This document shows, piece after piece, positions 36,966 through 37,538 of a stretch of DNA of 64,000 nt. Positions within the stretch are counted from its first letter, which is position 1. Every line of letters starts with the position of its first letter. Below the pieces are notes generated by a model. It did not search any database, had not been told where the DNA came from, and saw nothing but the letters and a program-made list of their open reading frames with translations. The DNA comes from Bacteroidia bacterium (GTDB taxonomy: Bacteria > Bacteroidota > Bacteroidia > UBA8524), in NCBI GenBank assembly GCA_037968475.1, contig JBBKVO010000035.1, forward strand, positions 7,090-71,089, written 5' to 3'. Position numbers and translations under genes: made by a program.

Positions 36966-37026
36966 TAATCAGGATTAACCTTATAACAACAAAAACCTCA
37001 CCATTACTGATGAGGTTTCTATTTTG

Positions 37027-37098
37027 TGGGGGCAACAGGATTCGAACCTGTGACTCTCCCGACTTATAGGTCGGGATGCTCTGAACCAGTTGAGCTAT
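37027..37098 (-). pseudogene. tRNA-Val-like copy: lacks the 5' acceptor strand, anticodon arm replaced
   Basis: TAGCTCAACTGGTTCAGAGCA-TCCCGACCTATAAGTCGGGA-GAGTCACAGGTTCGAATCCTGTTGCCCCCA. Confidence 0.85.
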
Positions 37099-37335
37099 TA
37101 ATAAGTTTTTCTATTTTCTTTCTACTCTTCCACTTTTTAATTTCAAGCTCTCTTTGATAAGCATCTGCCTTTGTTGAGTGTTCTTCAAAATGCCTCACTT
37201 CCCAATCGAAAACACCGCCTGTAAAACCTTTGTGGTTGGTATTGTGCTTGCGTAGCCTTTCCTTCAAGCTCTCGCCCGTATACCCTACATAGTATTTGTT
37301 TTTGCTTTTGAATAAAGGATATAAGTGAAATACAT
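37064..37335 (-). pseudogene. Small GIY-YIG nuclease interrupted by a -1 frameshift near the N-terminus
   Basis: ATG 37335 reads [10 protein letters not shown]; the -1 frame continues [22 protein letters not shown]...[15 protein letters not shown]. One extra A in TCA AAA (A)GC joins the two into an intact protein. Confidence 0.85.
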
Positions 37336-37387
37336 AAACGCCAATAAACAAAAAAACCTCACCATTACTGATGAGGTTTCTATTTTG

Positions 37388-37462
37388 TGGGGGCAACAGG
37401 ATTCGAACCTGTGACCCTCTGCTTGTAAGGCAGATGCTCTGAACCAACTGAGCTATGCCCCC
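37388..37462 (-). tRNA. tRNA-Val (TAC)
   Basis: GGGGGCA/TGCCCCC acceptor stem, D-arm TAGCTCAGTTGGTTCAGAGC, TCTGC-CTTACAA-GCAGA anticodon arm, GGTTCGAATCC T-loop. Confidence 0.97.
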
Positions 37463-37478
37463 TTTTATTTGCAAATTC

Positions 37479-37538
37479 TTTGAACTGTGAACCTCCCGAC
37501 CGTTGGTCGGGATGCTTAACCACTAGGGTTATGCCCTC
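37479..37538 (-). pseudogene. Degenerate tRNA-Val-like copy (5' part) with the same replaced anticodon arm
   Basis: GAGGGCATAACCCTAGTGGTTAAGCA-TCCCGACCAACGGTCGGGA-GGTTCACAGTTCAAA. Confidence 0.65.

What the first reader, a model, noticed from the sequence alone, without database searches (positions are those of the whole stretch)
36991..37538. tRNA-Val-anchored GIY-YIG mini-element built from tRNA-like repeats
Seen, on the minus strand in order: degenerate tRNA-like copy (5' part), intact tRNA-Val, terminator, GIY-YIG gene, tRNA-like copy (3' part), identical terminator. A 64-bp perfect direct repeat spans a 361-bp unit. The nuclease C-terminus ([11 protein letters not shown]) is encoded by the D-arm of the pseudo-tRNA, and its stop codon sits in the loop of the replaced anticodon arm. 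No integrase or transposase is present. Established: tRNA 3' duplications mark integrative elements, and GIY-YIG nucleases drive homing. Inference: a minimal selfish element that propagates at tRNA genes, or a nuclease plus tRNA-mimic module (decoy or guide RNA, anti-phage or tRNA-repair role).
Basis: partly seen in the sequence, partly recalled or inferred. Interest (0 to 1): 0.8.

Follow-up and report, generated by a model that had tools for sequence, protein, structure and literature searches.

The report
Nuclease cassette flanked by disabled tRNA copies
Next to a valine tRNA gene sits a broken copy of a small nuclease gene, flanked by copies of that tRNA whose anticodon arm is replaced by a tight hairpin. 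The same three-part cassette recurs at tRNA genes across Bacteroidota and beyond, I found no paper describing it, and it links a large uncharacterised nuclease family (UPF0213) to tRNA genes.

Summary
On the minus strand, in order: a 5' partial tRNA-like copy, an intact tRNA-Val(UAC), a terminator, a GIY-YIG gene, a near full-length tRNA-like copy, and the same terminator hairpin. There is a 64-nt perfect repeat at 361-nt spacing.

One correction: the window's nuclease gene is frameshifted by a 1-nt deletion in an A run, so this copy is probably dead.

The arrangement is not a local accident.
- In 55 of 68 assessable relatives from Bacteroidota genomes, the gene lies within 150 nt downstream of a tRNA (Val-UAC, rarely Arg-UCU).
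- 75 of 87 distinct 3' flanks carry a copy of the resident tRNA with the anticodon arm replaced by a GC hairpin that shows compensatory changes. None keeps a canonical anticodon arm.
- A distant GC-rich clade shows the same design at tRNA-Ala and tRNA-Val(GAC).
- Orthologous sites are filled or empty. Units form identical tandem arrays, decay, and break in the T arm.

Best reading: a selfish cassette that multiplies through nuclease-stimulated recombination at tRNA genes, as phage SegB does. The mechanism is inferred, not shown. A tRNA-mimic RNA partner is not excluded.

The parts
37462..37537 (-). Upstream 5' partial tRNA-like copy. It holds the 5' acceptor strand, a degenerate D arm and the hairpin CCCGACC-AAC-GGTCGGG (37511-37495). 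It is truncated in the T loop and followed by a copy of the CAAATAAAAGG pre-tRNA sequence. This 76-nt segment is absent from close relatives.
   Evidence: Sequence comparison with the tRNA. Hairpin search. Fold. Contigs of X2/X10 skip 37462-37537. L081, whose neighbouring gene is 96% identical, goes straight from CAAATAAAG into the tRNA.
37387..37462 (-). Intact tRNA-Val(UAC) gene.
   Evidence: ARAGORN. Rfam tRNA 78.2 bits. Cloverleaf fold.
37352..37381 (-). Terminator hairpin of the tRNA, copy 1, followed by TTTTTTTG.
   Evidence: Terminator scan. Lies inside the 64-nt perfect repeat.
37064..37335 (-). GIY-YIG nuclease gene of the UPF0213/Slx1-like type, frameshifted. ATG at 37335-37333; that frame stops at 37287-37285. 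The rest of the domain is read in the frame starting at 37333, with the stop at 37066-37064. The missing base is in the A run at 37299-37303.
   Evidence: Translations. Pfam PF01541 E=2.8e-15 on the frame-repaired protein. Intact relative P0001. One extra base in four other runs.
37026..37098 (-). Downstream tRNA-like copy of the resident tRNA-Val. It has the D arm, a variable loop with one change (AGAGTC against the tRNA's GGGTC), and a T arm and 3' acceptor strand identical to the tRNA. The 5' acceptor strand is missing and the anticodon arm is replaced. It overlaps the last 11 codons of the gene.
   Evidence: Rfam tRNA 32.1 bits over model positions 7-64. Repeats D1 and D2. Alignment. Fold.
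37058..37075 (.). Hairpin/palindrome CCCGAC-CTATAA-GTCGGG standing in place of the anticodon stem-loop. With the flanking T and A it forms 7 base pairs. The gene's stop codon lies in its loop.
   Evidence: Pattern search: 5 hits in the window against 0.1 expected. Fold z-scores -3.8 (RNA) and -3.8/-4.7 (DNA, either strand). Compensatory changes across 92 copies.
36991..37020 (-). Terminator hairpin, copy 2. Identical hairpin; the T tract is TTTTTGTTGTT.
   Evidence: Lies inside the 64-nt perfect repeat at offset 361. Sequence.
36991..37054 (.). 64-nt perfect direct repeat, copy 1. Copy 2 is at 37352-37415. It covers the T arm, the 3' acceptor strand and the terminator hairpin.
   Evidence: A unitig of exactly this segment has about twice the depth of the flanks.

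Best explanation
**What it is.** This locus is one decaying copy of a widespread tRNA-gene cassette with three parts:
1. A resident, functional tRNA gene, whose promoter probably also drives the cassette.
2. A gene for a roughly 85-aa single-domain GIY-YIG nuclease of the UPF0213/Slx1-like branch. It starts a few bases after the tRNA or its terminator.
3. One or more copies of the same tRNA in which the anticodon arm is replaced by a tight GC hairpin. One copy always overlaps the 3' end of the gene. A 5' partial copy often lies upstream of the tRNA.

**How it most likely works (inferred).**
- The nuclease nicks or cuts tRNA-gene DNA in or near the T arm, as the phage GIY-YIG enzyme SegB does.
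- Recombinational repair between tRNA-derived repeats then copies the cassette into empty tRNA genes (homing). The same repair also produces tandem arrays, partial copies and templated hairpin insertions.
- The hairpin-substituted copies would serve as homology arms that are neither working tRNAs nor good targets. One true tRNA is kept because it is needed.

**Shown here:** the architecture and its recurrence; concerted evolution of the copies with the resident tRNA; selection on hairpin pairing; filled and empty sites; arrays and decay; breakpoint clustering in the T arm.

**Inferred:** the cleavage activity, its site, and the role of the hairpin.
For: **Recurrence**
- 80 loci from GTDB genomes, nearly all Bacteroidota.
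- 55 of 68 assessable loci have tRNA-Val(UAC) or tRNA-Arg(UCU) within 150 nt upstream of the first gene. 5 more have a hairpin copy there.
- 75 of 87 distinct 3' flanks carry the hairpin-substituted copy. None carries a canonical anticodon arm.

**The copy follows the resident tRNA**
- T arm plus 3' acceptor strand are identical within a locus in 89% of 47 pairs (mean 99.5%). Between loci the mean is 73%.
- At tRNA-Arg loci the copy is Arg-derived.
- In a clade about 45% identical, the copies derive from tRNA-Ala(GGC) and tRNA-Val(GAC), and the GC hairpins have other sequences.

**Hairpin pairing is selected**
- 93% of cells are paired and the covariation score is 0.287, against 0.132 in shuffles (0 of 500 reach it).
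- Pair types include CG42/UA41/AU4, UA85/CG5 and AU79/GC8/CG4.

**Mobility and turnover**
- Orthologous aminopeptidase-tRNA-Val sites are empty in L082 and L083 and filled in L084 and the window.
- The 76-nt upstream copy is present or absent among relatives whose neighbouring gene is about 96% identical.
- Mucilaginibacter terrigena has identical 350-nt units in series, at least 5 complete on one contig (L063), with more on L064 and L067.
- A solitary 342-nt unit, 97% identical to an array 3.9 kb away, ends in the T arm.
- At least 9 of 93 distinct copies are broken, plus the window copy.
- 39 of 50 truncated or interrupted copies end between the variable loop and the T loop.
- An extra hairpin in the T arm of L002 matches the hairpin of its upstream copies, which points to a templated insertion.

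**The nuclease is probably active where the gene is intact**
- Y5, Y16, G18, R27, H31 and E63 are invariant in 52 sequences.
- dN/dS is 0.06 and 0.16 in the two close pairs.

**Analogy**
- T4 SegB recognises the DNA that encodes the T-psi-C stem-loop and homes (PMC2330249).
- T6 SegB drives tandem amplification of a tRNA+segB unit through tRNA/segB microhomology (PMC13096335).
Against: - No activity, target or transcript was measured.
- The protein has no DNA-binding domain (85-90 aa). Its nearest folds are UPF0213 and the structure-specific nuclease Slx1, not I-TevI or Seg enzymes. Sequence-specific homing is therefore not what this branch is known for.
- The true tRNA next to the gene keeps its T arm, so self-cutting would have to be limited in some way.
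- Pure target immunity does not explain why hairpin pairing is conserved through compensatory changes.
- Filled and empty sites could arise from loss alone. The nuclease (73% identical between the window and L084) and the neighbouring aminopeptidase (80%) have diverged by similar amounts, which fits vertical descent with losses.
- The family is absent from the phage genome collection. Horizontal transfer was not demonstrated.
Confidence: 0.5

Rival explanations
1. RNA-level module. The hairpin-substituted tRNA copies are transcribed and act with or against the nuclease. They could be a pseudo-substrate or antitoxin for a tRNA-directed nuclease, in a layout like type III toxin-antitoxin systems (RNA repeats, terminator, toxin gene). 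They could also be a tRNA-shaped cofactor or a 3' stabiliser of the mRNA.
For: - Hairpin pairing is kept by compensatory changes, and in a distant clade by entirely different GC stems of similar length with 3-4-nt loops. That is what structural selection looks like.
- Some loci have tandem tRNA-like repeats, then the tRNA and a terminator, then the gene (L010, L014, L021, L087).
- Prokaryotic Slx1-like GIY-YIG domains are recurrently fused or adjacent to a COG4123 methyltransferase and, once, to TrmH (PMC1564403).
- From my own knowledge, COG4123 is YfiC/TrmN6. That YfiC/TrmN6 methylates A37 of tRNA1-Val(cmo5UAC) is stated in papers read.
Against: - Many copies lack the 5' D-stem strand or the first acceptor pairs, so they cannot fold into a full tRNA shape.
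- Mismatches in the hairpin show no bias towards G-U on the sense strand: 17 GT/TG against 16 AC/CA.
- The upstream partial copies lack a T arm.
- No RNA support for the gene or the hairpin was found in four metatranscriptomes.
- GIY-YIG enzymes are known as DNases.
- Arrays of identical nuclease+RNA units are not typical of toxin-antitoxin loci.
- There is no meaningful hit in PADLOC.
Confidence: 0.2
2. Domesticated housekeeping nuclease. An Slx1-like structure-specific enzyme is kept beside highly transcribed tRNA genes to process stalled forks, R-loops or cruciforms there. The tRNA-like copies and arrays would be by-products of that recombination, much as Slx1 is linked to rDNA copy-number maintenance in yeast.
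For: - Nearest folds are UPF0213 and Slx1.
- Purifying selection acts on the gene in some lineages.
- The family is very large: 9,424 clusters at E<=1e-3.
- The Slx1-rDNA link is cited in PMC1564403.
Against: - Related genomes do without it at the same site (L082, L083).
- Three close relatives show one intact and two differently broken copies.
- Copy number per locus runs from 0 to 6 or more.
- A by-product model does not explain why the 3' copy always carries a paired hairpin and never a normal anticodon arm.
Confidence: 0.15
3. Footprint of an integrase-type island (attL/attR duplication of the tRNA 3' end), or an accidental local duplication or assembly artefact with an unrelated small gene caught inside.
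For: Integration of mobile elements into tRNA genes commonly leaves partial tRNA copies as direct repeats (PMC9897764). A direct repeat covering the 3' part of the tRNA is present here.
Against: - No integrase is present in the window neighbourhood or in the fetched loci examined.
- The unit is only 361 nt.
- The repeat covers nearly the whole tRNA, with a specific replacement of the anticodon arm.
- The same design recurs in more than 60 loci and two divergent clades.
- Unitig depths fit the assembled structure.
Confidence: 0.03

Closest known systems
SegB of T-even phages (free-standing GIY-YIG homing endonuclease in the tRNA gene cluster)
   Same: Both are GIY-YIG nuclease genes embedded among tRNA genes. 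SegB recognises the DNA encoding the T-psi-C stem-loop (PMC2330249). [quoted passage not shown] Here the 3' end of the gene overlaps a tRNA copy, units form arrays, and breakpoints cluster in the T arm.
   Different: - SegB is a multi-domain phage enzyme. This protein is a single 85-90-aa domain of the UPF0213/Slx1 branch, is chromosomal, and is absent from the phage collection.
- No hairpin-substituted tRNA copies are reported for SegB in the passages I read.
- Cleavage was not tested here.
UPF0213 / prokaryotic Slx1-like stand-alone GIY-YIG proteins (BH0048, EF2693; the E. coli YhbQ type)
   Same: Best structural matches are 1zg2 and 1ywl, followed by Slx1. The minimal domain matches Pfam PF01541. 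The GIY, YIG, Arg and Glu residues are conserved.
   Different: - I found no published function or tRNA-gene linkage for this family.
- The only earlier hints are the fusions to COG4123 and TrmH methyltransferases.
- No NCBIfam model matches.
tRNA-targeting genomic islands and prophages (integrase-mediated att duplication)
   Same: The element sits at a tRNA gene, a direct repeat of tRNA sequence bounds it, and a functional tRNA is preserved (for the general pattern).
   Different: There is no integrase. The unit is 350-380 nt. The repeat is almost the whole tRNA with the anticodon arm swapped for a hairpin. Extra partial copies lie upstream, and units form tandem arrays.
Type III toxin-antitoxin systems (ToxIN-like: RNA repeats, terminator, toxin gene)
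   Same: In some loci the order is repeated small structured units, then a terminator, then a small nuclease gene.
   Different: The protein is a GIY-YIG domain, not a ToxN/AbiQ-type endoribonuclease. The repeats derive from the neighbouring tRNA. No RNA data are available. The PADLOC hit is not meaningful.
Mobile GIY-YIG ORFs of fungal mitochondria that insert at gene 3' ends and duplicate the displaced end (Allomyces atp6 case; recalled from memory, not checked here)
   Same: A free-standing GIY-YIG ORF is joined to the end of a host gene, with a duplicated and altered copy of the host gene segment downstream.
   Different: The host gene there encodes a protein and the setting is an organelle. 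This is a lead from memory, not a test.

Membership tests
GIY-YIG nuclease superfamily (Pfam PF01541) | Profile match above the curated cut-off, and a beta-beta-alpha-beta-alpha core | tested here: met
   PF01541 E=2.8e-15, 56.8 bits against a cut-off of 22.6, on the frame-repaired translation. AF2 model with a 52-sequence alignment: E2-9, E14-20, H24-32, E45-53, H56-68, H72-82, mean pLDDT 76.8.
GIY-YIG nuclease superfamily (Pfam PF01541) | Catalytic residues present: Tyr of GIY, Tyr and Gly of YIG, Arg, His, Glu | tested here: met
   Y5, Y16, G18, R27, H31, H35 and E63 are invariant in 52 family members.
GIY-YIG nuclease superfamily (Pfam PF01541) | Uninterrupted reading frame in this window | tested here: not met
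   The ATG frame stops after 16 codons and the rest of the domain is in another frame. Relatives have one more A.
UPF0213 / Slx1-like branch | Single-domain protein whose closest structures are UPF0213 proteins and Slx1 | tested here: met
   Foldseek against the PDB: 1zg2 (E=1.1e-3, 31% identity), 1ywl, then Slx1 entries 6seh, 4xlg and 7cq2. I-TevI and UvrC score lower. The scores are modest. A sequence search of the PDB gave only a weak UvrC hit.
Free-standing GIY-YIG homing endonuclease (Seg/I-TevI type) | Catalytic domain joined to a separate DNA-binding domain that gives site specificity | tested here: not met
   Family members are 81-93 aa and are filled by the catalytic domain alone. Longer database entries are read-throughs of the tRNA or of tandem units.
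Free-standing GIY-YIG homing endonuclease (Seg/I-TevI type) | Alleles with and without the gene at the same locus | tested here: met
   L082 and L083 are empty; L084 and the window are filled, downstream of the orthologous aminopeptidase gene and tRNA-Val.
Free-standing GIY-YIG homing endonuclease (Seg/I-TevI type) | Site-specific cleavage of the allele that lacks the gene, followed by gene conversion | not testable with these tools
   Indirect only: breakpoints of partial copies cluster in the T arm, and copies evolve in concert with the resident tRNA.
Integrase-type tRNA-integrating island | Tyrosine or serine recombinase gene inside the element | tested here: not met
   No such ORF between the repeats or among the neighbours. 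None among the called genes of L081-L084 and L086-L089.
Canonical tRNA (applied to the two tRNA-like copies) | 7-bp acceptor stem and an anticodon arm of 5 bp with a 7-nt loop | tested here: not met
   ARAGORN finds only the true tRNA. The downstream copy matches Rfam tRNA only over model positions 7-64, with the anticodon loop region not aligned. The hairpin has 7 bp with a 6-nt loop here and mostly 3-5-nt loops in the family.
Type III toxin-antitoxin system | ToxN/AbiQ-type endoribonuclease, and an antitoxin RNA that it processes | tested here: not met
   The protein is a GIY-YIG domain. PADLOC returns only a marginal unrelated hit, E=0.033. RNA processing could not be tested.
Any described RNA family other than tRNA | Rfam covariance-model match | tested here: not met
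   Permissive Rfam scan of 36000-38600: besides tRNA, only sub-threshold chance hits.

The most novel reading that the evidence does not exclude
The hairpin-substituted tRNA copies are not just recombination scars. They are expressed, tRNA-derived RNAs, or strand-extruded DNA hairpins, that the UPF0213 nuclease specifically recognises. They would act either as a non-cleavable decoy or antitoxin for a tRNA-directed nuclease, or as the structural signal that tells a domain with no DNA-binding module where to cut.

That would define a new kind of tRNA-derived nucleic-acid/nuclease partnership. It would also give a first function to a family of about 9,400 protein clusters. And it would explain the old, unexplained fusions of this domain to the tRNA-Val(UAC) A37 methyltransferase family and to TrmH.
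Probability: 0.2. Interest if true: 0.9.

Novelty: new variant of a known kind. Interest (0 to 1): 0.7.

Why it matters
- **A handle on an uncharacterised family.** UPF0213/Slx1-like GIY-YIG proteins are among the commonest uncharacterised small nucleases in bacteria. This profile finds 9,424 clusters at 50% identity. A strict, repeated linkage to a tRNA gene and to a specifically altered copy of that tRNA gives a concrete, testable substrate hypothesis.
- **A chromosomal parallel to a phage mechanism.** It extends to bacterial chromosomes the recently shown phage principle that a GIY-YIG enzyme beside tRNA genes drives segmental amplification.
- **Annotation.** It explains a class of annotation and assembly problems. 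Contigs break at these loci. 'tRNA' calls appear with undetermined or odd anticodons. Gene calls read through tRNAs or fuse tandem units.
- **Evolution.** If the cassette is selfish, it is one of the smallest autonomous elements known, at about 350 nt. It would exploit an essential gene both as its promoter and as its landing site.

Tried and rejected
- **Expression.**
  - Soil and peat metatranscriptomes sharing words with a Mucilaginibacter locus covered only the true tRNA.
  - Two marine metatranscriptomes hold short contigs over the gene of a relative, at depth 3-9. That is too weak to count, and DNA carry-over is possible.
- **Databases with nothing useful.** NCBIfam. PADLOC and PHROGs, marginal hits only. 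Phage genomes, no match. IMG/VR, a single hit. Sequence search of the PDB, only a weak UvrC hit.
- **Single-sequence AlphaFold model.** Too poor to use (pLDDT 59.6). It was replaced by the alignment-based model.
- **Is the hairpin a genome-wide REP-like repeat mobilised by this nuclease?**
  - The window has only 5 hits: 2 here and 3 inside an unrelated hairpin-rich repeat at 1-1200.
  - That repeat has no blastn similarity to the units.
  - Left open, not adopted.
- **RNA versus DNA selection on the hairpin, from G-U against A-C mismatches.** 17 against 16, so uninformative.
- **The idea that the ...SEHPD tail is a protein motif.** Rejected, because stops and frames vary while the DNA is conserved.
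- **Integrase island and misassembly.** Both rejected.
- **Literature.** Eight full-text searches found no description of this arrangement. The library lacks most subscription journals, so absence is not proof.
- **Failed or corrected calls.**
  - Two early regular expressions for the true anticodon arm were off by one base and returned nothing. They were fixed.
  - The first intactness count mislabelled start codons and was redone.
- **Caveat on selection of copies.** The covariation count used copies pre-selected for five perfectly paired stem positions. Only the three positions that were not pre-selected (columns 14, 20 and 21) are unbiased.
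Full report
**1. What is in the window**

Read on the minus strand, 37537 to 36991 contains the following, in order:
- A 5' partial tRNA-like copy (37537-37462).
- The only tRNA gene of the window, tRNA-Val(UAC), at 37462-37387 (ARAGORN; Rfam 78.2 bits).
- A terminator hairpin (37381-37352).
- A GIY-YIG reading frame (37335-37064).
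- A second Rfam tRNA hit (37098-37034, 32.1 bits against a gathering score of 29, model positions 7-64).
- The same terminator hairpin again (37020-36991).

A 64-nt perfect repeat (36991-37054 and 37352-37415, offset 361) covers the T arm, the 3' acceptor strand and the terminator hairpin. It lies inside a 76-nt repeat at 95% identity. The D arm is repeated at 92%.

The downstream copy differs from the tRNA in three places:
- Its first seven bases.
- Two changes in the D arm and one in the variable loop.
- Its anticodon arm. TCTGC-CTTACAA-GCAGA is replaced by TCCCGAC-CTATAA-GTCGGGA, a 7-bp hairpin.

The upstream copy carries a sister hairpin, CCCGACC-AAC-GGTCGGG, and stops being tRNA-like inside the T loop.

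The frame ends ...[11 protein letters not shown], read from the D arm and the hairpin's 5' arm. Its TAA stop is in the hairpin loop.

The neighbours are an aminopeptidase P, YjdM/PhnA and an RlmF-like methyltransferase. There is no recombinase.

In the source run the 64-nt repeat unitig has depth 128. The 357-nt unit has 78.7 and the flanks 74-83. That is one unit per genome, with no sign of misassembly.

**2. A correction: the gene is broken here**

The ATG at 37335-37333 reads [16 protein letters not shown] and then stops. The rest of the domain is in the frame that starts at 37333.
- P0001 is 94% identical and reads through as an intact 90-aa protein.
- Contigs of four other runs have one more base in the A run at 37299-37303.
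- In two of those runs (X2, X10; the neighbouring gene of the comparable relative L081 is 96% identical) the gene instead has a 2-nt deletion. It truncates the protein after residue 69.

So three close relatives hold one intact and two differently broken copies.

The 90-aa protein used for my searches is therefore a frame-repaired, conceptual translation.

**3. The arrangement recurs**

A scan of one genome per GTDB species returned 80 loci, almost all Bacteroidota. They include Chitinophagaceae, Sphingobacteriaceae, Flavobacteriales, Cytophagales and Bacteroidales. Protein identity to the query is 53-73%.
- Of 68 assessable loci, 55 have a true tRNA within 150 nt upstream of the first gene copy. 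It is Val-UAC in most and Arg-UCU in three Flavobacteriales. Five more have a hairpin copy there.
- Of 87 distinct 3' flanks, 75 carry a GC hairpin where the anticodon arm should be. None carries a canonical anticodon arm. Most of the rest are single-mismatch or truncated versions.
- In 21 of 55 loci a hairpin-bearing 5' partial copy lies just upstream of the true tRNA, as in the window.
- Nineteen loci hold two or more gene matches, and many of these are tandem units of about 350-380 nt. Mucilaginibacter terrigena has identical 350-nt units filling a whole contig and the ends of two others.

**4. The copy belongs to the resident tRNA; the hairpin belongs to the cassette**

- Within a locus, the T arm and 3' acceptor strand of the copy equal those of the neighbouring tRNA in 89% of 47 pairs (mean 99.5%). 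Between loci the mean is 73%.
- At tRNA-Arg loci the copy has the Arg D loop, variable loop, T arm, acceptor end and terminator, yet the same TCCCGA...TCGGGA stem.
- Less diverged copies even keep the local anticodon loop (TTACAA, TTCTAA) between the foreign stem strands.

Across 92 distinct copies the 7-bp stem is paired in 93% of cells, with compensatory pair types:
- UA85/CG5, CG79/UA13, AU79/GC8/CG4 and CG42/UA41/AU4.
- The covariation score is 0.287 against 0.132 in shuffles, and 0 of 500 shuffles reach it.
- Five of the stem positions were pre-selected as paired. The positions that were not pre-selected show the same behaviour.

Pairing usually extends into the loop and leaves 3-5 unpaired bases, so this is not an anticodon loop.

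Mismatches show no sense-strand G-U bias: 17 against 16. This count therefore does not say whether RNA or DNA structure is what is selected.

**5. The ...GSEHPD tail is a by-product**

In 75 distinct units:
- The stop lies 1-22 nt before the hairpin in 26.
- It lies inside the hairpin in 26.
- It lies beyond the hairpin in 20.
- It lies upstream of the tRNA-like part in only 3.
- The hairpin starts in all three frames.

The nucleotide sequence GGTTCAGAGCATCCCGA is what is conserved. 'GSEHPD' is simply its translation in one frame.

**6. A distant clade does the same thing**

The one IMG/VR hit (L085, 45% identity) and its relatives (L086-L089, GC-rich organisms) show the gene 10-13 nt after tRNA-Ala(GGC) or tRNA-Val(GAC), or directly after a tRNA 3' end. 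In L085 the tRNA-Ala lies upstream on the opposite strand.
- A copy of that tRNA follows the gene.
- Its anticodon arm is replaced by other GC hairpins with 3-4-nt loops: TCCCGT..ACGGGA, TTCCGCG..CGCGGAA, GGCCGAC..GTCGGCC, TCCCTG..CAGGGA.
- L087 also has two upstream 5' partial copies. L086 has tandem units. L085 has hairpins in place of both the anticodon arm and the T loop.

The rule is therefore general: a resident tRNA, then a UPF0213-type gene, then a copy of the same tRNA with the anticodon arm closed into a tight hairpin.

**7. Turnover**

I used the aminopeptidase gene as an anchor.
- L082 and L083 (80-81% identity) have tRNA-Val plus a terminator and nothing else.
- L084 (80%) has, in order:
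  - a 5' partial copy;
  - the tRNA with the same terminator as empty L083;
  - a full hairpin copy with a terminator like the window's;
  - the gene, followed by a truncated copy.
- L081 and the X2/X10 contigs lack exactly the 76-nt upstream copy.
- L006 is a solitary 342-nt unit, 97% identical to the units of an array 3.9 kb away. Its homology ends in the T arm on both sides.
- Among 50 truncated or interrupted copies, 39 end between the end of the variable loop and the T loop.
- Extra hairpins are inserted in or next to the T arm in several loci. In L002 the inserted hairpin matches the one in its own upstream copies.
- Of 93 distinct gene copies, 68 are clearly intact and at least 9 are truncated or frameshifted. 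The broken ones are often the distal members of arrays.
- The two close pairs that could be measured give dN/dS of 0.06 and 0.16.

**8. The protein**

- Pfam GIY-YIG, E=2.8e-15.
- Invariant Y5, Y16, G18, R27, H31, H35 and E63.
- The alignment-based model (pLDDT 76.8) is closest to the UPF0213 proteins BH0048 and EF2693, then to Slx1, then to I-TevI and UvrC.
- There is no second domain.
- The profile finds 9,424 clusters at E<=1e-3 and 1,440 at E<=1e-10. Several representatives of 125-214 aa contain two matched stretches, most simply read-throughs of tandem units.

**9. Mechanism**

The best-supported reading is a selfish cassette that uses the tRNA gene as promoter, landing site and homology arm.

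The closest experimental precedent is SegB.
- T4 SegB recognises a site whose conserved core is the DNA for the T-psi-C stem-loop, and it homes (PMC2330249).
- T6 SegB drives homologous-recombination-dependent tandem amplification of a tRNA+segB unit. The junction joins tRNA sequence to the 3' end of segB (PMC13096335).

Four observations here are what nuclease-induced breaks in tRNA-gene DNA and their repair would leave:
- T-arm breakpoints.
- A gene whose 3' end runs into a tRNA copy.
- Identical arrays.
- Templated hairpin insertions.

Cleavage by this protein, its site, and the role of the hairpin are all inferences.

Two facts weigh against simple homing. The enzyme has no DNA-binding domain and sits in a structure-specific branch. 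And hairpin pairing is under selection, which target immunity alone does not require.

Both facts leave room for two alternatives:
- The hairpin, as an extruded DNA structure, is what the enzyme recognises.
- The tRNA-like transcript is a partner of the protein.

The second idea gains some interest from an old observation. Prokaryotic Slx1-like domains are recurrently fused or adjacent to a COG4123 methyltransferase and once to TrmH (PMC1564403). To my knowledge COG4123 is the YfiC/TrmN6 family. That YfiC/TrmN6 methylates A37 of tRNA1-Val(cmo5UAC) is stated in papers read.

**10. Known or new**

Eight full-text searches found no description of this linkage or of hairpin-substituted tRNA copies. 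The library is incomplete for subscription journals.

I file it as a new variant of a known kind: a free-standing GIY-YIG gene that lives on tRNA genes. Four features are not reported for SegB:
- A different GIY-YIG branch.
- A chromosomal setting across at least one phylum.
- Obligatory hairpin-substituted tRNA copies.
- A unit of only about 350 nt.

**11. Verdict**

- The copy in this window is probably a dead relic.
- The class it belongs to is real, widespread, apparently undescribed, and experimentally tractable.

Noticed in passing
window 1-1200 (tandem repeat 319-1144); related pieces at 8868-9187 and 63199-63616: A non-coding, hairpin-rich repeat: a 350-nt unit, 2.4 copies, 90% identity. 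It is built of many short GC hairpins. Three of them have the TCCCGA-N4-6-TCGGGA form (105-120, 452-467, 1138-1153), the same stem core as the cassette hairpin. It has no blastn similarity to the GIY-YIG units, so the shared stem may be coincidence or a shared recognition motif.
   Followed up: partly
window 39036-42839 (-): A 1267-aa ORF. Its ortholog in L081 carries WD40/beta-propeller and Peptidase_C14 (caspase-like) Pfam hits. It lies just beyond the aminopeptidase gene.
   Followed up: no
window 37064-37474 (-); protein representatives P0252, P0256, P0266, P0324: Mechanical ORF calling reads through the tRNA, giving a 136-aa ORF from the TTG at 37474. Public gene calls of 125-214 aa contain two GIY-YIG stretches, most simply read-throughs of tandem units. 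Annotations of this family are often wrong at both ends.
   Followed up: partly
loci L007, L042 (tRNA-Arg) against the tRNA-Val loci: The true tRNA-Val(UAC) of many loci and the tRNA-Arg(UCU) of L007 and L042 share AGAGCATCTGCCTT..AAGCAGA.GGTC around the anticodon (L073's tRNA-Arg and some tRNA-Val genes have other stems). That is the only part replaced in the copies. It could be why these two tRNAs are the ones occupied.
   Followed up: no
L063, L064, L067 (Mucilaginibacter terrigena 17JY9-4): Identical 350-nt units fill a 1,989-nt contig and sit at the ends of two larger contigs. This is probably one long array that broke the assembly. It would be a good strain for experiments.
   Followed up: partly
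L085 2889-3400 (IMG/VR contig): An inverted variant. tRNA-Ala(GGC) lies upstream of the gene on the opposite strand. Two tandem tRNA-Ala-like copies lie downstream, and in them both the anticodon arm and the T loop are replaced by TCCCGA-type hairpins.
   Followed up: partly
window 37336-37351; L002 2480-2496; L087 1546-1556; L088 1491-1503: The start codon lies 3-25 nt after the terminator's T tract (which ends in G), or 10-13 nt after the tRNA itself. There is almost no 5' UTR and no visible separate promoter. The gene probably depends on read-through or co-transcription from the tRNA promoter.
   Followed up: no
L002 2804-2820, 3184-3200; L016, L007, L008, L029, L042, L049, L058: Additional small GC hairpins are inserted in or beside the T arm of tRNA-like copies. 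In L002 the insert matches the hairpin of the upstream partial copies rather than the one in its own anticodon position.
   Followed up: partly
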